50,809 nt of DNA. Source: a phage. A model generated the notes under the pieces. The model worked only from the letters and a program-made list of their open reading frames with translations. It was not told where the DNA came from and ran no database searches. Both the position numbers and the translations under genes were made by a program. Location: the sequence record NC_136442.1. One strand, written 5' to 3'. Of this stretch, positions 1-50,809 are shown piece by piece. How positions within the stretch are numbered: the stretch's first letter is position 1; each line of letters starts with the position of its first letter.

Positions 1-127
1 CGGCGGTATCACTATCGACTCTATCGCAGAGCTTGAGGATATTGACGGCAAAGGTACGAAAGGTTGCTTGGTTTACGAAAAAGATCCAATGAACATGAGC
101 ATTGAGATTCCAGAAGCGTTTAACATG
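1..127. repeat. terminal duplication, identical to 50683-50809 (circular closure or assembly overlap)
   Basis: Exact 127-nt identity between window start and end, read directly. Confidence 0.95.
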
Positions 128-12984: not shown

Positions 12985-13263
12985 TCACCCCCAAAAAGTA
13001 TATATATATCTTGAATCAGATCCAGAAAGCCCACTCCATGTAACGGTGTCGCCACTTACCCCTAAGTTTGGCGCTCCAGGGTCGCCACCACGCCAGGAAT
13101 TCATGCCAACATATATTGCTTTCAATGATTTACCTGGTGGCCTGTTTTGGTAAGTCTTGCTACCTGATGGCTGAGTGAATTTATCAAGGAAGAAAACAGG
13201 CGTTAAAAGTCCTGTAACTTCCCTTCCTCGATCGTCATATATTGCATAACCATATTGCGCCAT
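12985..13263 (-). CDS. hypothetical protein (92 aa), possibly N-terminal part of a frameshifted receptor-binding gene
   Basis: GAGGTG RBS; ends in TGA inside a TTTTTGGGGG run just upstream of the next ORF. Confidence 0.5.
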   Translation of the reverse strand: MAQYGYAIYDDRGREVTGLLTPVFFLDKFTQPSGSKTYQNRPPGKSLKAIYVGMNSWRGGDPGAPNLGVSGDTVTWSGLSGSDSRYIYTFWG

Positions 13264-13532
13264 TAATTACACCTCAAATCAATAAATTTACTTTCATTTT
13301 GCCAACGGTTGATAAATTTAACTTCTTTATTGTCAACGCTCAACCTGTATTGCTTTTGGCTGAATCTGTTTTCGCGTACTGCATTAATTTTAACTTCATG
13401 GAATCCGTTAACAGGGAATGTTTTAACGTTAAATTTTGCCGTGCAGTCGATCTCATTGAAGTTGCCAGTAGGAGACGCTGCGCACCCGGTCAGAGCGGCT
13501 ACAGTGGCGATAACTGCGATTAATTTTTTCAT
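13263..13532 (-). CDS. lipoprotein, candidate superinfection-exclusion protein (Cor/Llp-like role)
   Basis: N-terminus MKKLIAVIATVAALTGC carries a lipobox; AAGGAG RBS 8 nt upstream of ATG at 13532. Confidence 0.6.
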   Translation of the reverse strand: MKKLIAVIATVAALTGCAASPTGNFNEIDCTAKFNVKTFPVNGFHEVKINAVRENRFSQKQYRLSVDNKEVKFINRWQNESKFIDLRCN

Positions 13533-13563
13533 CTTCAATACTCCTTAGTTGTCGTTGCCTGTA

Positions 13564-13606
13564 ACTATACACGATCCGACAAGCGGCGTTTAGCAAAAAG
13601 TGCTAC
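13564..13606 (-). promoter_or_regulatory. motif-type promoter cassette (variant GTAGCACTTTTTGCTAAAC, 18-nt spacer, TATAGT) for the lipoprotein gene
   Basis: Motif, spacing and -10-like hexamer read on the minus strand. Confidence 0.55.
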
Positions 13607-13975
13607 TTGTTATTTTTTGTTTTTCGGCGTTATCGAATTTAAGGCGGCGTAAATTTAGCGCAAATTTTAGCCAACATAAGGGCAATAAACAATCAATAAA
13701 ATAGATATATACATATAAAATCAATAGTTTATTTATTTATGTATGTATATTTGTTTTTTCTTGTTATCTGTGTTTCTTGTGGTTTTGGTTGTTTGTGGTG
13801 ATTTTTCTTTCTGAGTATCTGTATGTGCCATCATTCATGTGTATGTATATAATCCGGCGTATCTGAGAGAACAAGGGAACAAGAAAAATAACACATATTA
13901 ATCATTGACTTACGTTTCAAATTTGTTTTATTGCAATCTAAGAACGTTTAGAAAACAGAAAAAACAAAACAGCTA

Positions 13976-14003
13976 TTGACTAAATCAACCAAATGGCTAC
14001 AAT
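13976..14003 (+). promoter_or_regulatory. sigma70-type promoter TTGACT-16-TACAAT driving the exonuclease-Erf-SSB module
   Basis: Near-consensus -35 and -10 at correct spacing, 30 nt upstream of the RBS/ATG at 14034. Confidence 0.65.
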
Positions 14004-14033
14004 GCACACACAAAGCAACAAGGAGCATCAAAG

Positions 14034-15089
14034 ATGAGTGATTTTAACGCCTACACTAGCGAAGAAATGAGCAATGAGCTTTATCATGATCCTAACGCGT
14101 GGACGGCTGAATACGTCAGCGGTTCCAGCTTGGCGGAGATTTACAGCACTTGCCCGGCGTACTGGAAGTACAAGCCTCGCCAGGAAACTAAGGCACTTGT
14201 TTTCGGTACGCAGTCGCATACCAATTTTGAAAGCAAGGAGTTATTCGAAAAAACATATCGCCGCGCACCGTCGCAGGATGACTTTAAAGATCTGATCACA
14301 AGCCAAACTGCGTTAGCTGCAAAGCTGAAATCTTTTGGCCTGAAAGGTACAACGGGTAAGCAATATCCAGAATTGCTGGAAATGCTGTACAAGTGCGGTG
14401 AGGATCTCAATGTATGGTGGCTTATCGAAATGATGGCAGAATGCCAGGCCGCAGCGGACGGAGTGCAGTTAATCGACGCGAAAGATTATGATGCCTGTGT
14501 AGCGATGCGGCGCGTACTTGAGGCAATACCTGAGCATAATGCTTGCATGAATAGCCCAACCGCGCAGCGTGAAATGTCAATATTCGGGATCATCAATGGC
14601 GTAAAAGTTAAAGTGCGCCTTGATCACGTTGACGTAAACAAGGATGTAAAGGCCACAATCATTAACGGTTACGACGAAAAAGGCCGACCGATTTATGAAG
14701 AAGTCATCTATCCAGAAGCTGTGATTATCACTGACTATAAAACAACGGTTAGCGCAAATCCGGTTGACTTCCAGCGCCTGGCTTACAATCACGGCTATTA
14801 TCTCAAAATGGCTTTGCAGCATGATTTATTTAAAAAGGCGTATCCAGACGAGGAAAGGCCAGTAATTGTGAGATTGCTTGCTCAAGAGAAGAAAGAGCCT
14901 TACTTGCCGCTCGCATTCCGCATGAACATTGAGCAATTGAAGATCGGGCGTATCCAGTACATGAGCGTGATCAACAAGTTCAACGTTTGCCAACAGTTAG
15001 ATGAATGGCCTTCGTATGCAAACGGGCAGCCAGAAATTGATCTTGATACTCCTGATTGGGTGCGCGCTCAATTCAGGCAGTATCTATAA
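14034..15089 (+). CDS. PD-(D/E)XK family exonuclease (recombination exonuclease)
   Basis: RLDHVD ... ITDYKT motif pattern; adjacent to Erf and SSB. Confidence 0.65.
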   Translation: MSDFNAYTSEEMSNELYHDPNAWTAEYVSGSSLAEIYSTCPAYWKYKPRQETKALVFGTQSHTNFESKELFEKTYRRAPSQDDFKDLITSQTALAAKLKSFGLKGTTGKQYPELLEMLYKCGEDLNVWWLIEMMAECQAAADGVQLIDAKDYDACVAMRRVLEAIPEHNACMNSPTAQREMSIFGIINGVKVKVRLDHVDVNKDVKATIINGYDEKGRPIYEEVIYPEAVIITDYKTTVSANPVDFQRLAYNHGYYLKMALQHDLFKKAYPDEERPVIVRLLAQEKKEPYLPLAFRMNIEQLKIGRIQYMSVINKFNVCQQLDEWPSYANGQPEIDLDTPDWVRAQFRQYL

Positions 15090-15164: not shown

Positions 15165-15422
15165 ATGACAGATAAAGACAATGCCACATTATTGCATTTA
15201 GAACGATTCATTGATCGAGTAACCATTGCAATGAAAGAATTTATTAAGCCGATGAACATTAAAGAGTCGGAAGAAATGAAGACTTACATCAAGGACGTGG
15301 TTGCATCCATTGACAACGTTATCCTTGTTGCAACGATGAGCAAGGGAAACAAAGAGCGCGAGAGGTTGGTTGCTGAATCAACAGAAGAATTTATTAAAAT
15401 GCTTGAAAGCGAGAAGGAATAA
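15165..15422 (+). CDS. hypothetical acidic protein (85 aa)
   Basis: ORF with AGGAGA RBS between exonuclease and Erf genes. Confidence 0.55.
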   Translation: MTDKDNATLLHLERFIDRVTIAMKEFIKPMNIKESEEMKTYIKDVVASIDNVILVATMSKGNKERERLVAESTEEFIKMLESEKE

Positions 15423-16079
<657 letters not shown>

Positions 16080-16122
16080 TAAACGGGGCGCTTGCGCCCC
16101 TTTTGTCATAGGAGAAAACAAA

Positions 16123-19831: not shown

Positions 19832-20308
19832 TTAGCTATTCGTGCTGTTATCACCTTTGTAGAATCGTCCGCCTGGTTCGTAGTCTGAATTTTTGACTAC
19901 GCGCAACATTTCGTATTTGTCGCAACGGGTAGTAAGAGGCTTGCCGTTAGAATCAAACCGCAGATCTGGACGACAAAACGAGGCGCGGTATCCTTTGCAT
20001 CCATTATATTTGTAGTCGTTATGCACCTTTTGTGCTCCAGCGGCTGAAATCATACCACGCTTTCGCCACTGGTTAACGACTTGCTGAGATACGCGCAGAC
20101 GTCGAGCCATAGCAGGAACACCGCCGTAATACTCGATCAGAATGTCAAGGCGAGATTTTAGGCTTGCTTTTACCTCATCTCGCAGGATAAGAAATCCGGT
20201 TCGGTGTTTTCGTGGCTTTTTGTCTTTACCTCGTCGCGTTCCGTTGTTACCGTTAATAGTGCGCTTGTCGATCTCACCCGTAGACACTGCAATTCGTGCA
20301 TCTTTCAT
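19832..20308 (-). CDS. basic HTH DNA-binding protein (Cro/YdaS-like helix-turn-helix)
   Basis: GGVPAMARRLRVSQQVVNQWRKRG helix-turn-helix-like segment; arginine/lysine-rich N-terminus. Confidence 0.55.
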   Translation of the reverse strand: MKDARIAVSTGEIDKRTINGNNGTRRGKDKKPRKHRTGFLILRDEVKASLKSRLDILIEYYGGVPAMARRLRVSQQVVNQWRKRGMISAAGAQKVHNDYKYNGCKGYRASFCRPDLRFDSNGKPLTTRCDKYEMLRVVKNSDYEPGGRFYKGDNSTNS

Positions 20309-31455: not shown

Positions 31456-31737
31456 TTATACGATCCCAGTTACGTTAAAACTTACAGCCTTTGTTGCGCT
31501 AAATACATAAGCATCAACAGCGCCGCCAAATACACGAATTTTACCCTGGCCGTACTGCGCATTCATATTTCGCCAAACCGTTCTATTAGAGCAGAATGCG
31601 CTACCAGTCTTAATAAGCGTATCCATCTCTTTTCTTAGATCGCGATAGTCCAGCCAGAATCTAAAGGCACGCTGTTTAATTCGCGCCGCCTTGATTTTTT
31701 CTCTTGCGCTATTGAAATCATTCTTTTCGTATGCCAT
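31456..31737 (-). CDS. hypothetical protein (93 aa)
   Basis: TAATG overlap with upstream gene. Confidence 0.5.
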   Translation of the reverse strand: MAYEKNDFNSAREKIKAARIKQRAFRFWLDYRDLRKEMDTLIKTGSAFCSNRTVWRNMNAQYGQGKIRVFGGAVDAYVFSATKAVSFNVTGIV

Positions 31738-31934
31738 TAAATGATCTCCATGTATGTTTCAAAGCCATTTAACTTGAACAGGCCGTTTTCACATTTGCGC
31801 ACGTTCCAAGTTAGCCCTGAGTGGTACGCCTCCATATCATCAAGGTCAATGGTGATTTCAGCACCTTTCTTAAACAAACCTTTTTCGTGAGACTTGTCGC
31901 GCTTAACAACTTTAACATCAACCTGATTTTCCAT
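31737..31934 (-). CDS. hypothetical protein (65 aa)
   Basis: Start MENQVDV follows cassette leader ...CATCGACAACAAGCGAGGATTTAAAG. Confidence 0.55.
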   Translation of the reverse strand: MENQVDVKVVKRDKSHEKGLFKKGAEITIDLDDMEAYHSGLTWNVRKCENGLFKLNGFETYMEII

Positions 31935-31965
31935 CTTTAAATCCTCGCTTGTTGTCGATGGGTGT

Positions 31966-32009
31966 AATATACCATTCAGGCGCACATCGTTTTTAACAAA
32001 AAGTGCTAT
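31966..32009 (-). promoter_or_regulatory. motif-type promoter cassette (motif with extra A, TATATT)
   Basis: Read on minus strand. Confidence 0.6.
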
Positions 32010-33741: not shown

Positions 33742-33775
33742 TGCTATCTCCTGAGCGGTTCGTTTCGATGTGTGT

Positions 33776-33819
33776 AATGTACCCGATCAGGTGGCCTGAG
33801 TTTTAACAAAAAGTGCTAT
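33776..33819 (-). promoter_or_regulatory. motif-type promoter cassette (consensus motif, 18 nt, TACATT)
   Basis: Read on minus strand; leader ACACACATCGAAACGAAC. Confidence 0.6.
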
Positions 33820-33850
33820 TTGACGGTTAGAGCCAGGATTGTGATCGAAA

Positions 33851-33938
33851 TAATCAGAAGTAATCATTCGTAATCAAATCACGTCAAAATGATGATTGCC
33901 TTTGCAAATTTGATGAGAAAAGTAATCACGTTTAATCA
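33851..33938. repeat. five TAATCA direct repeats phased at 10-bp intervals (33851, 33861, 33871, 33923, 33933)
   Basis: Read directly; helical phasing in a non-coding divergent region. Confidence 0.8.
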
Positions 33939-34358
33939 TTGGTTGCAGGGGAGATAGTGAAACATTCCCCTCTTGCCTCACTTTTCCGCCTGGCTGTCAG
34001 TGGTTGTTATGTTCCGTTCCCGCCTGTTCTTTTGTTGACCTTCCGCAAAATACGATAACAAAAAATAACAAACAATACCTATATAATACATTGAAAAATA
34101 AGGATTATTTATTTATATGTATCTATATATTCTCTTTTGTTATCTTGGTTATTGTGGTATTTGGTGGGGGTATATAGTTTTTGTGTATCTATATGTGTGT
34201 ATGGGTATGTAAGGGCATATATATCTATATGGCACTTTCCGCGAGAAAACTTCGATAACAATCAATGATAACATTGATTTATAAGGAAAAATAACGCCTA
34301 TATTGTTATTGTGCCACCATATAAAATTGATAAAACACGCGGGAACAAGAAAAAACAG

Positions 34359-34387
34359 TTGACACATTAAATAGCATTATTGATAAT
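34359..34387 (+). promoter_or_regulatory. consensus sigma70-type promoter TTGACA-17-GATAAT for the rightward early block
   Basis: Perfect -35, 17-nt spacer, -10 GATAAT, followed by AGGAGG RBS and ATG 34416. Confidence 0.7.
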
Positions 34388-34415
34388 GCCGACACCTAAC
34401 AACCAGGAGGCAGAA

Positions 34416-49957: not shown

Positions 49958-50809
49958 ATGGCTAAAAAATATGATGAATTAGATGCTACTATTGTAGCAA
50001 ATCATTTGCAGATTCAGGGTGTTAAGTCCGACGCTTCTGATATGGGTATTTGGACCGCTCAAGAGCTACACAAGATCCGCTCTAACGCATACGAGAAAGA
50101 GTATCCGGCAGGTTCCGCGCTTCGCGTATTCCCTGTAACAAACGAGCTTTCTGATACTGACAAGACTTTCGAATATCAGACTTTTGATAAGGTTGGCTAC
50201 GCGAAAATTATCGCCGACTACACCGATGATCTGCCGACTGTGGACGCGTTGATGACTTCTGAGTTTGGCAAAGTGTTCCGCCTGGGTAACGCTTATCTGA
50301 TCTCCATTGATGAGATTAAAGCAGGTCAGCGAACTGGCAAGAGCCTGTCAACTCGCAAGGCTAACGCTGCGCAAAATGCACATGATCAGTTGATTAACTT
50401 CCTGGTGTTCAAGGGTTCCAAGCCTCACAAGATCGTTTCCGTTTTCGATCATCCTAACCTTACGAAAATTGTTTCTAAAGGCTGGATGAGCAATGACGGC
50501 AATACCAAGTTCCCGCAGGTAGCAAGCGATGAACTGGAGGCTGCAATCGAAACGATCGAGGAAGTGACCAAAGGCCAGCACCGCGCGACCAACATCCTGA
50601 TCCCGCCGTCCATGCGTAAAGTCCTAACGGTTCGAATGGAAAATACCACTGAAAGTTATCTTGAATACTTTCAGAAGCAAAACGGCGGTATCACTATCGA
50701 CTCTATCGCAGAGCTTGAGGATATTGACGGCAAAGGTACGAAAGGTTGCTTGGTTTACGAAAAAGATCCAATGAACATGAGCATTGAGATTCCAGAAGCG
50801 TTTAACATG
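49958..50809 (+). CDS. major capsid protein, N-terminal 284 codons (continues at 1..247)
   Basis: GGAGG RBS; ORF runs to the window end and continues in frame through the duplicated junction. Confidence 0.7.
   Translation, partial: MAKKYDELDATIVANHLQIQGVKSDASDMGIWTAQELHKIRSNAYEKEYPAGSALRVFPVTNELSDTDKTFEYQTFDKVGYAKIIADYTDDLPTVDALMTSEFGKVFRLGNAYLISIDEIKAGQRTGKSLSTRKANAAQNAHDQLINFLVFKGSKPHKIVSVFDHPNLTKIVSKGWMSNDGNTKFPQVASDELEAAIETIEEVTKGQHRATNILIPPSMRKVLTVRMENTTESYLEYFQKQNGGITIDSIAELEDIDGKGTKGCLVYEKDPMNMSIEIPEAFNM
50683..50809. repeat. terminal duplication, identical to 1-127
   Basis: Exact identity read directly. Confidence 0.95.

What the first reader, a model, noticed from the sequence alone, without database searches (positions are those of the whole stretch)
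13539..14033. AT-rich structured element, copy A, between the lipoprotein gene and the recombination module
A 495-bp non-coding gap in an otherwise tightly packed genome, with TA/TG-alternating tracts, the blocks shared with copy B, a leftward motif cassette (13564-13606) and the rightward TTGACT-16-TACAAT promoter (13976-14003). It separates the late tail/receptor region from the exonuclease-Erf-SSB genes, so it is a candidate early promoter hub and possibly a replication or recombination initiation site.
Basis: partly seen in the sequence, partly recalled or inferred. Interest (0 to 1): 0.55.

Follow-up and report, generated by a model that had tools for sequence, protein, structure and literature searches.

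The report
Conserved promoter and candidate origin module
This 500-base non-coding gap in a T1-like coliphage holds two outward-facing promoters around a deeply conserved, easily melted TA-rich core flanked by phage-specific short repeats, which makes it (with its twin 20 kb away) the best candidate so far for the unknown replication origin or early-gene switch of this phage family.

Summary
The window is a Warwickvirus (Drexlerviridae, T1-like) genome. Positions 13533-14033 are a non-coding gap between cor (leftward) and exonuclease VIII-Erf-SSB (rightward).

The leftward cassette is one of 20 copies of the family's known 21-nt-repeat promoter class. The rightward TTGACT-16-TACAAT promoter is one of only two intergenic canonical sigma-70 promoters in the genome; the other sits in copy B.

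The roughly 340 bp between them has four notable properties:
- It is homologous to copy B (local alignment z about 20).
- Its architecture is kept across the family, and gap length stays 470-551 bp.
- It contains the least stable duplex of the genome. The same holds in T1 and SRT8.
- It has an IHF-consensus site at the centre of a dyad, flanked by phased arrays of short repeats (TTGTT(A/C)TC here, GTGTAACA in T1) in the same orientation order in A and B.

Because the repeat differs between clades that share a host, the binder should be phage-encoded.

My best reading (0.45) is an iteron-flanked unwinding element, meaning a replication origin coupled to early transcription. The main rival (0.3) is an early-to-late transcription switch. 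There is no sign of RNA, peptide or packaging function. Nothing has been tested experimentally.

The parts
13533..14033 (.). Whole non-coding module (copy A) between the cor start codon (13532-13530, minus strand) and the exonuclease VIII start codon (14034).
   Evidence: The gap length is 470-551 bp and GC is 0.31-0.35 in the 19 related loci where the cor flank could be placed, even though the cor allele differs between them.
13564..13569 (-). -10 element TATAGT of the leftward 21-nt-repeat-class promoter for cor.
   Evidence: 20 cassettes genome-wide, most with a -10-like hexamer about 18-19 nt after the repeat. The hexamer is conserved in the alignment.
13588..13607 (-). 21-nt direct repeat (AGTAGCACTTTTTGCTAAAC). 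It contains the palindrome TAGCA-N5-TGCTA, centred about -42 from the inferred start site.
   Evidence: It matches the consensus aaATAGCACnnnTTGnTAAAA described for TLS, T1 and Rtp, whose function is unknown (PMC11447400).
13609..13635 (+). Left array of short repeats (TTGTTAT / TTGTTTTTC / GCGTTATC) spaced about 10 bp apart.
   Evidence: Relatives carry TGTTCT-N-TGTTCTC-N-TGTTCTC or TGTTTTC-TGTTCCA-TGTTCAC at exact 10-bp spacing.
13636..13667 (.). GC box followed by a tandem GCG(T/C)AAATTT(T)A x2. TAAATTTAGC is invariant in Tempevirinae.
13673..13692 (-). Reverse-oriented repeats (AACA at 13673 and 13688) on the left flank of the TA core.
   Evidence: The consensus across copies A and B is AACAAAAAgAACAAA.
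13696..13751 (.). TA-rich core 1. It is among the two least stable duplex stretches of the genome and is the candidate DNA unwinding element.
   Evidence: nearest-neighbour dG, z about 4.5, ranked 1st or 2nd at windows of 30, 50, 100 and 200 bp. The gap A and gap B cores of T1, SRT8, KarlJaspers and MatMar rank 1st and 2nd in the same way.
13719..13731 (+). IHF consensus match AATCAATAGTTTA (WATCAANNNNTTR) at the centre of the dyad.
   Evidence: only 5 matches in the whole genome. The match is kept at the same place in 13 of the 43 gap A loci (and in 5 of 15 gap B loci), with the N positions varying.
13688..13765 (.). Imperfect dyad with arms 13688-13720 and 13733-13765 (33 nt, 73% complementary).
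   Evidence: The equivalent in copy B is 34054-34068 / 34130-34144 at 87%.
13750..13795 (+). Central forward array of repeats (TGTT at 13752, 13762, 13771 and 13790).
   Evidence: One search shows the phasing (0 of 500 shuffles reach it). One search shows the TGTT/AACA cores are 64% invariant against 37% elsewhere (p = 2e-4).
13796..13837 (.). T/G-rich spacer. Its sequence varies between relatives but its composition is kept.
13838..13853 (.). TA core 2, containing TGTATGTATAT, an exact repeat of 13740-13750.
13854..13861 (.). Conserved CCGGCG box.
13867..13893 (-). Right array of reverse-oriented repeats, GAGAACAAGGGAACAAGAAAAATAACA.
13899..13912 (+). Conserved block TAATCATTGACTTA. It is an IHF-like site with one mismatch here and is a perfect match in many relatives. 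It lies about 100 nt upstream of the inferred start site of the rightward promoter.
   Evidence: 23 gap A loci have a perfect consensus match about 133-141 nt upstream of the exonuclease start codon, on the opposite strand in the T1 group.
13950..13972 (-). A-rich tract AGAAAACAGAAAAAACAAAACAG. It is both an UP-element-like tract and a third reverse-oriented repeat array.
13976..14003 (+). Canonical sigma-70 promoter: TTGACT, 16-nt spacer, TACAAT. The inferred start site is near 14010.
   Evidence: It corresponds in position to TLS P51.
14020..14036 (+). Ribosome binding site AAGGAG and the ATG of exonuclease VIII.
33742..34415 (.). Copy B, the paralogous module with the same order of parts plus an extra segment of about 180 bp (33822-34000).

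Best explanation
Copy A is a composite cis-acting control region conserved across T1-like phages.

Promoters at the edges. Two promoters fire outward. The leftward one is a phage-specific 21-nt-repeat-class promoter for cor. The rightward one is a strong host-type sigma-70 promoter with an A-rich upstream tract, serving exonuclease VIII, Erf and SSB. It is one of only two such promoters in the genome and therefore probably immediate-early.

The module between them. About 340 bp are organised like an iteron-type replication origin:
- A roughly 50-bp TA-rich dyad that is the easiest DNA in the genome to melt.
- An IHF-consensus site at the centre of that dyad.
- Phased (about 10 bp) arrays of a short repeat, TTGTT(A/C)TC, in mirrored orientation on both sides.

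The repeat sequence differs between clades that infect the same host (T1 uses GTGTAACA, SRT8 uses TGTAATC), so its binder should be a phage protein.

Proposed mechanism (inferred, not shown). After early expression, a phage DNA-binding protein occupies the repeat arrays. One candidate is the winged-helix C-terminal domain of the MCM-like DUF3987 replicative helicase, working with the P4-alpha-like primase. IHF bends the centre. Negative supercoiling behind the two diverging RNA polymerases helps melt the TA core, and helicase and primase are then loaded. Copy B would be a second origin or a cooperating element.

What is shown here: the anatomy, its statistics, its conservation, and the paralogy of A and B.
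What is inferred: protein binding, unwinding and replication initiation.
For: - A and B are homologous over about 145 nt (z about 19.7). They have the identical order and orientation of repeat arrays, TA cores and promoter.
- TGTT/AACA sites are enriched: 14 vs 7.1 +/- 2.2 in A and 14 vs 5.4 +/- 2.2 in B. Pairs spaced 9-11 bp apart number 3 and 3, against 0.17 and 0.12 expected, and no shuffle out of 500 reaches that.
- The repeat cores are phylogenetic footprints: 64% invariant vs 37% elsewhere, p = 2e-4.
- In T1, TGT[AT]AC[AC] occurs 10 times in gap A, 5 times in gap B and only 10 times in the other 47.6 kb. TGTWACA occurs only in the two gaps. The repeats and the TA core are invariant while the sequences between them vary.
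- Clade-specific repeat variants sit in the same architecture.
- The TA cores of A and B are the two least stable windows in this genome, in T1 and in SRT8, and in the 25-kb segments of KarlJaspers and MatMar that were examined.
- There is a dyad centred on an IHF consensus, which is conserved with variable N positions.
- Gap length is held at 470-551 bp in 19 loci although the neighbouring cor allele is swapped.
- The phage encodes a primase whose match covers the N-terminal half of longer primase family profiles (PHROG 510), and the T1 primase is annotated as similar to a P4-like alpha replication protein. It also encodes a DUF3987 helicase. The helicase C-terminal 113 aa model as a winged helix (pLDDT 82.8), with the WH domain of MCM4 as best match.
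- DUF3987 proteins have been described as MCM-like replicative helicases with a C-terminal wHTH (PMC4889955).
- No origin is known for T1-like phages. The TLS paper found none.
Against: - There are no experimental data of any kind.
- The repeats in this phage are short and degenerate, so the enrichment is significant but modest.
- The module always lies upstream of the early sigma-70 promoter, and its right-most repeat array coincides with the UP-element position. A purely transcriptional role would explain that equally well.
- In SRT8 the repeat variants of A and B differ (TGTAATC vs TGTATAAG/TTAGACA). That weakens the idea of one common binder.
- There is no concerted evolution of A and B.
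- There are no DnaA boxes, and GATC is scarce.
- Winged-helix folds are ubiquitous, and the Foldseek E-values are weak (0.03). Binding of the helicase to these repeats is therefore a guess.
- Gene orientation fits B as a bidirectional origin better than it fits A.
Confidence: 0.45

Rival explanations
1. Early-to-late transcription switch region with no origin function. The repeats would be operators for a phage-encoded regulator. Together with IHF bending of the flexible TA-rich centre, it would build a looped nucleoprotein complex. That complex would shut off, or first stimulate, the immediate-early sigma-70 promoter, as in the phi29 p4/p6 switch region or the Mu operator/IHF region.
For: - Both copies sit directly upstream of the only two intergenic canonical sigma-70 promoters, and in TLS the module is kept even without a leftward promoter.
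- The right-most repeat array overlaps the -40 to -60 region.
- A conserved IHF-like site lies about 100 nt upstream of the start site in most clades.
- In T1 gap B, repeats lie just downstream of the TTGACA hexamer and so overlap the position of a core promoter.
- The spacers of both early promoters carry a sequence resembling half of the 21-nt repeat (AAAT(A/G)GC). This hints at repression by the factor that binds that repeat.
- A Cro/YdaS-like HTH protein is encoded.
Against: - Repression does not explain why the centre must be the least stable DNA of the genome in every genome examined.
- It does not explain why repeat arrays extend 350 bp upstream in mirrored orientation around that centre.
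- In this phage no repeat overlaps the -35/-10 core of the promoter in copy A.
Confidence: 0.3
2. Passive architectural DNA. The region would be an AT-rich promoter-upstream stretch that serves host factors only (RNA polymerase alpha subunits, IHF, Fis, H-NS) or acts as a sink for supercoils between divergent promoters, with no phage-specific binding protein.
For: - AT-rich upstream regions and IHF sites are common at strong phage promoters (established knowledge).
- IHF consensus matches are present.
- The region lies between divergent promoters.
Against: - The short repeats are clade-specific although the host is the same. Host-factor sites should not change in that way.
- Helical phasing of A/T tracts is not exceptional (z <= 3, not among the genome's top windows), so intrinsic curvature is not supported.
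- Strong block-wise conservation extends over 340 bp.
Confidence: 0.1
3. Packaging or recombination initiation site: a secondary pac-like or cut site feeding the adjacent exonuclease/Erf system.
For: - Position 1 of the T1 record, which is the start of the annotated terminal redundancy, lies inside T1's gap B.
- Several relatives' records are linearised in gap B, and one (BEC3) is linearised inside gap A.
Against: - The segment of gap B around the T1 record start corresponds to the B-specific part (33822-34000), which copy A lacks.
- Where a record is linearised is largely a matter of convention.
- Nothing in copy A resembles a terminase site.
Confidence: 0.05
4. The gap encodes a small RNA or small peptides.
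For: - Some GenBank records annotate three tiny ORFs here.
- The plus-strand fold has z = -2.0.
Against: - The ORFs are disrupted in relatives.
- There is no Rfam match at the gathering threshold or at E <= 1.
- The minus-strand fold has z = -1.1.
- No conserved internal promoter-terminator pair exists.
- The fold signal comes from the DNA dyad.
Confidence: 0.03

Closest known systems
21-nt intergenic direct repeats and the predicted sigma-70 promoters P51/P01 of phage TLS (also T1, Rtp, Rogue1), PMC11447400
   Same: The leftward cassette matches the consensus aaATAGCACnnnTTGnTAAAA, points with transcription, and lies 74 nt upstream of the start codon. The rightward promoter occupies the same position as TLS P51, directly upstream of the exonuclease gene.
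   Different: That paper does not describe the TA-rich core or the short phased repeats. It states that no iterons or origin were found. The function of the 21-nt repeat is listed there as an open question.
Satellite phage P4 ori and crr, with the alpha primase-helicase (own knowledge)
   Same: There are two cis regions kilobases apart that share short repeats. The P4 type I iteron TGTTCACC resembles TGTTCAC/TGTTCTC/TGTTATC here and in TLS. The T1 primase is annotated as similar to a P4-like alpha replication protein, and this phage's primase matches the N-terminal half of longer primase family profiles. In P4 the repeats are recognised by a winged-helix domain.
   Different: Primase and helicase are separate genes here, and the helicase is DUF3987 (MCM-like). 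No homology to the P4 origin-binding domain was shown. The repeats differ between clades. The resemblance to the P4 iteron is recalled from memory and was not tested.
Bacillus phage SPP1 oriL/oriR and lambda ori (own knowledge)
   Same: Initiator repeats lie next to an AT-rich unwinding region. SPP1 has two copies per genome. Lambda couples its origin to nearby early transcription.
   Different: Those origins lie in or beside the initiator gene. No dedicated initiator gene is recognisable here.
Archaeal origins: an AT-rich unwinding element flanked by inverted ORB repeats bound through winged-helix domains, loading MCM (own knowledge)
   Same: The anatomy is mirrored repeats around an unwinding element. 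The helicase is MCM-like with a C-terminal winged helix.
   Different: No Orc1/Cdc6 homologue was found, and the repeats are much shorter.
phi29 early/late switch region (p4/p6) and the phage Mu operator/IHF region (own knowledge)
   Same: Each is a divergent early and later promoter pair with multiple regulator sites and a bend in between.
   Different: Those regions are not the genome's stability minimum. No p4-like or p6-like protein was identified here.

Membership tests
Canonical sigma-70 promoter | -35 and -10 hexamers close to TTGACA/TATAAT with a 16-18 nt spacer | tested here: met
   TTGACT, 16-nt spacer, TACAAT: 10 of 12 positions match.
Canonical sigma-70 promoter | The match is more than chance | tested here: inconclusive
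   The count of consensus matches equals the shuffle expectation (3 vs 3.6). However, this site is nearly invariant across clades, T1 included. It is one of only two intergenic sites with an A-rich upstream tract.
Canonical sigma-70 promoter | Mapped transcription start and activity | not testable with these tools
   No transcript data for Drexlerviridae were found.
Drexlerviridae 21-nt direct-repeat element | Consensus aaATAGCACnnnTTGnTAAAA | tested here: met
   AGTAGCACTTTTTGCTAAAC scores one mismatch against the specified positions of the search pattern ATAGCACNNNTTGNTAAA (consensus).
Drexlerviridae 21-nt direct-repeat element | Intergenic, pointing with transcription, about 76 nt upstream of a start codon | tested here: met
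   The repeat starts at 13606 and the cor ATG is at 13532, a distance of 74 nt on the same strand.
Iteron-type replication origin | Several copies of a short repeat, clustered and phased | tested here: met
   Enrichment and 9-11 bp phasing exceed the shuffles in A and in B. T1 shows 58-fold density. The repeats are footprints in alignments.
Iteron-type replication origin | Adjacent AT-rich DNA unwinding element | tested here: met
   This is the least stable duplex of the genome by nearest-neighbour energy. Stress-induced opening itself was not computed.
Iteron-type replication origin | An element-encoded initiator that binds the repeats | not testable with these tools
   Only candidates exist: the winged-helix domain of the DUF3987 helicase and the Cro/YdaS-like protein.
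Iteron-type replication origin | Supports initiation of replication | not testable with these tools
   This needs marker-frequency analysis or plasmid amplification assays.
Host DnaA-dependent (oriC-like) origin | Clustered DnaA boxes and GATC sites | tested here: not met
   There is no perfect DnaA box. One 1-mismatch site per gap is about the genome-wide rate (1.74 per kb). There is 1 GATC in 501 bp against 6 per kb genome-wide.
P4 ori/crr system | Type I iteron TGTTCACC bound by the alpha C-terminal domain | tested here: inconclusive
   TGTTCAC occurs in TLS gap A, and TGTTCTC/TGTTCCC/TGTTATC occur here. No sequence match of the primase or helicase to any solved structure was found. The P4 iteron is recalled from memory.
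Structured non-coding RNA | Match to a known family, or a stable conserved fold | tested here: not met
   Rfam gives no match. Fold z-scores are -2.0 and -1.1.
Protein-coding gene | Reading frame conserved in relatives | tested here: not met
   Frames are broken in relatives.
Intrinsically curved promoter-upstream DNA | A/T tracts phased at 10-11 bp | tested here: not met
   Periodicity power has z <= 3 and is not among the genome's top windows.

The most novel reading that the evidence does not exclude
Copies A and B are the long-sought replication origins of T1-like phages. They would be a paralogous pair of unwinding elements, each flanked by clade-specific repeats. A phage protein would recognise them, perhaps the winged-helix domain of the MCM-like DUF3987 helicase. 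Each is fused to one of the only two host-type early promoters, so early transcription would license origin firing. The two may cooperate at a distance as P4 ori and crr do.
Probability: 0.3. Interest if true: 0.7.

Novelty: new member of a known kind. Interest (0 to 1): 0.55.

Why it matters
T1-like phages (Drexlerviridae) are classic, abundant laboratory and environmental coliphages, yet their replication origin and the control of their early transcription are unknown. The latest reannotation of TLS reports finding no iterons or origin, and it lists the regulatory repeats as an open question.

This work pins down two short, family-wide conserved non-coding modules with defined parts: an unwinding core, an IHF site, phased clade-specific repeats, and the only two host-type promoters. 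That turns the open questions into simple experiments. It also gives annotators a reason not to call the spurious small ORFs placed there in several GenBank records.

Tried and rejected
- Rfam at the gathering threshold on the whole window, and at E <= 1 on 13400-14150: no match.
- RNA folding of both strands: weak z-scores, and the signal comes from the DNA dyad.
- Small ORFs: not conserved.
- Intrinsic curvature from phased A/T tracts: not exceptional.
- DnaA boxes and GATC clustering: absent.
- Concerted evolution or gene conversion between A and B: not seen. Same-genome A-B scores are no higher than cross-genome scores.
- Copies of the module in plasmids or in 5,426 E. coli genomes, which might have indicated satellites hijacking an origin: no match.
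- Sequence search of the primase and helicase against solved structures: nothing.
- Pfam on about 30 early proteins for further DNA-binding candidates: only the Cro/YdaS-like protein.
- Concordance of repeat type between A and B in further clades: obtained only for SRT8, where the variants differ. Two attempts to fetch gap B of other clades through flanking proteins missed those contigs.
- Literature searches for a T1-family origin, transcript maps or any description of this region: nothing beyond the TLS paper.

Full report
**Identity and context.** The window is a complete T1-like siphophage genome. The first and last 127 bases are identical, which is an assembly overlap. The finding region is 99-100% identical to Escherichia phages Kalemo, tiwna and NorthRox. 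Tiwna belongs to Warwickvirus, Tempevirinae, Drexlerviridae. The gap lies between three leftward genes ending with the Cor lipoprotein gene (13263-13532) and the rightward exonuclease VIII gene (14034-15089). Downstream follow an 85-aa ORF, Erf and SSB. Copy B (33742-34415) is likewise a divergent gap.

**Check of the observation.**
- The gap is non-coding. The tiny ORFs annotated in some records are broken by frameshifts and stops in relatives with conserved DNA.
- GC is 0.318.
- A and B share about 145 nt of real similarity: local score 78 against 22.8 +/- 2.8 in shuffles.
- The leftward cassette consists of a -10 TATAGT at 13564-13569 and a 21-nt repeat at 13588-13607. It is one of 20 cassettes with the same layout, namely the repeat, usually a -10-like hexamer about 18-19 nt later, and often a CATCGAAAC-type leader.
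- This repeat is the one described for TLS, T1 and Rtp as 'aaATAGCACnnnTTGnTAAAA', whose function is unknown (PMC11447400).
- The rightward promoter is TTGACT, a 16-nt spacer and TACAAT. The consensus match alone is not above chance. However, the site is almost invariant from Warwickvirus to T1. It corresponds in position to TLS P51, upstream of the exonuclease gene. Together with the promoter of copy B, it is the only intergenic canonical sigma-70 promoter with an A-rich upstream tract in the genome.

**Conservation.**
- The non-coding gap is found in 152 phage records, at 67-100% identity where most of it aligns.
- In the 19 of 43 IMG/VR loci where the cor flank could be placed, the gap keeps a length of 470-551 bp and a GC of 0.31-0.35. 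This holds even though the neighbouring cor allele is exchanged between otherwise near-identical gaps.
- Alignments show alternating conserved and variable blocks.
- Orthologous A copies are far more alike than A and B of one genome, and there is no sign of gene conversion. A and B are therefore old paralogues held similar by selection.

**Anatomy of the central 340 bp.**
- *TA-rich core.* The core at 13696-13751, and its twin at 34080-34130, are the two least stable duplex windows of the genome at every window size tried (z about 4.5). The gap A and gap B cores also rank first and second in the whole genomes of T1 and SRT8 and in the 25-kb segments of KarlJaspers and MatMar.
- *Dyad and IHF site.* The core is an imperfect dyad with arms 13688-13720 and 13733-13765. 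At its centre is AATCAATAGTTTA, a perfect match to the IHF consensus WATCAANNNNTTR. There are only five matches genome-wide. The match is kept at the same place in several clades and in some B copies, with the N positions varying. A second conserved IHF-like block lies about 100 nt upstream of the rightward start site in most clades.
- *Short repeats.* Around the core lie arrays of a short repeat with a TGTT core, TTGTT(A/C)TC. Counts are 14 sites against 7.1 +/- 2.2 in A and 14 against 5.4 +/- 2.2 in B. Consecutive sites 9-11 bp apart occur three times in each copy, against 0.17 and 0.12 expected (0 of 500 shuffles).
- *Shared orientation order.* The order is the same in both copies: forward, two reverse, TA core 1, forward array, T/G-rich spacer plus TA core 2, reverse array, one forward, reverse array, then the -35 hexamer.
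- *Footprints.* The repeat cores are preferentially invariant among ten Tempevirinae sequences, 64% against 37% (p = 2e-4).

**The repeat is clade-specific.**
- T1 and its close relatives use GTGTAACA/TGTTACA in the same places. There are 10 sites in gap A, 5 in gap B and 10 in the remaining 47.6 kb. TGTWACA occurs only in the two gaps. The repeats and TA core are invariant while the sequence between them varies.
- SRT8 uses TGTAATC. ESCO41 and another clade use TGTAAC, with TGTCAC as well in the latter. TLS uses TGTTCAC/TGTTCCA.
- Since T1, TLS and this phage all grow on E. coli K-12, a host protein is an unlikely reader of these repeats. A phage-encoded, co-evolving DNA-binding protein is the economical explanation (inference).
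- In SRT8 the arrays of A (ATGTAATCA-type) and B (TGTATAAG, TTAGACA) differ beyond a shared ATGTA core with 9-bp period. One binder for both copies is therefore not assured in every clade.

**Candidate readers.** Pfam and PHROG scans of the replication and early proteins gave the following:
- A primase with a T7/P4-type zinc ribbon. It matches only the N-terminal half of longer primase family profiles (PHROG 510).
- A DUF3987 helicase.
- A 157-aa Cro/YdaS-like HTH protein.
- No other recognisable DNA binder.

DUF3987 proteins have been described as MCM-like (SF6) replicative helicases with a C-terminal winged helix (PMC4889955). A model of the last 113 residues has pLDDT 82.8 and a helix-strand-helix-helix-hairpin topology. 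Its best structural matches are the winged-helix domain of MCM4 and other winged-helix domains, with weak E-values. This shows that a plausible reader exists. It does not show that it binds here.

**Interpretation.**
- The anatomy is that of an iteron-type origin: mirrored initiator-type repeats around the genome's easiest-to-melt DNA, a bending-protein site in the middle, transcription diverging from both sides, and two copies per genome. Comparable systems, from my own knowledge, are lambda, SPP1 oriL/oriR, P4 ori/crr and archaeal ORB/unwinding-element origins. I rate this reading at 0.45.
- The main alternative (0.3) is that the same protein-DNA complex serves only to switch off, or modulate, the two immediate-early promoters, as in the phi29 or Mu control regions. 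The constant position upstream of the sigma-70 promoters fits this. So does the overlap of the last array with the UP-element position. So does a sequence resembling half of the 21-nt repeat in the spacers of both early promoters (13990-13997 and 34368-34376).
- The two readings are not exclusive.
- Passive architectural DNA (0.1) is disfavoured by the clade-specific repeats and by the lack of unusual A-tract phasing.
- Packaging or recombination initiation (0.05) lacks support. The part of gap B that corresponds to the T1 record start is missing from A.
- An RNA or peptide product (0.03) is disfavoured.

**Novelty.** The two promoters are already predicted or known as a class. The central module, its paralogy, its stability minimum and its clade-specific phased repeats were not found in any paper searched. 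The TLS reannotation states that no iterons or origin could be found. If it is an origin, it is a new member of a known kind. The result is interesting mainly because it makes an old open question directly testable for a classic phage family.

Noticed in passing
window 1-127 and 50683-50809: The two stretches are exactly identical over 127 bases. This is most likely an assembly overlap of a circularly closing contig, so the unique genome is 50,682 bp.
   Followed up: no
20 sites genome-wide, e.g. 22809, 23880, 35134, 35597, 36812 (+) and 33819, 32515, 32009, 29976 (-): The 21-nt-repeat cassettes share one layout. The repeat contains the palindrome TAGCA-N5-TG(C/T)TA, centred about 42 nt upstream of the start site. 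A -10-like hexamer usually follows 18-19 nt later, often with a leader of the CATCGAAAC type. The repeat's TTGTTA lies 22 nt from the -10, too far to act as a -35 element, so the layout resembles an activator-dependent (class II-like) phage promoter. The 157-aa Cro/YdaS-like protein (19832-20308, minus strand) is a candidate binder.
   Followed up: partly
window 13990-13997 and 34368-34376: The spacers of both early sigma-70 promoters contain AAAT(A/G)GC, which resembles the 5' half of the 21-nt repeat. It is conserved in relatives (AAATAGCTACAAT). The repeat-binding factor might repress the early promoters through it.
   Followed up: no
window 33822-34000: Copy B carries about 180 bp that copy A lacks. 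This segment has four (G/T)TAATCA repeats and a GGGGAG...CCCCTC hairpin. The T1 record start, which is the start of its terminal redundancy, lies in the corresponding part of T1 gap B. Several relatives' records are linearised about 206-223 bp from the flanking gene. This is a possible pac region.
   Followed up: partly
L008 vs window, left edge of gap A: Gaps that are 91% identical are flanked by different Cor alleles: one T1-type, the other the type found in this window. A mosaic exchange boundary therefore lies at the left end of the module.
   Followed up: no
window 15165-15422: An 85-aa ORF between exonuclease VIII and erf is absent from Kalemo and MatMar and present in haarsle and KarlJaspers. 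Databases label it 'tail length tape measure protein' (PHROG 11265), which looks like a propagated misannotation.
   Followed up: no
phage records MG0656xx: Eighteen records named 'Campylobacter phage' match the non-coding gap of this coliphage over about 95% of its length at about 73-75% identity, like other Drexlerviridae. They probably carry a wrong host label or are contaminants.
   Followed up: no
MN158217.1 (phage BEC3), position 1 = window about 13744: This record is linearised inside TA core 1 of gap A. It may be an assembly break in AT-rich DNA. It could also reflect a real end, but no evidence supports that.
   Followed up: no
window 31737-31985 (minus strand): This small early protein matches Pfam PF25180, 'phage antiviral trigger protein Gp54' (E = 4e-38).
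   Followed up: no
L124 (phage SRT8) 5600-6114 and 35987-36698: In SRT8 the short repeats of gap A (TGTAATC, six copies) and gap B (TGTATAAG tandem array, TTAGACA) differ. They share only an ATGTA core with a 9-bp period. The two modules may therefore have different readers in some clades.
   Followed up: partly
window 16086-16113: A terminator-like hairpin, GGGCGCTTGCGCCC followed by TTTTG, lies directly after erf and before or overlapping the ssb start. It may attenuate transcription within the early operon.
   Followed up: no
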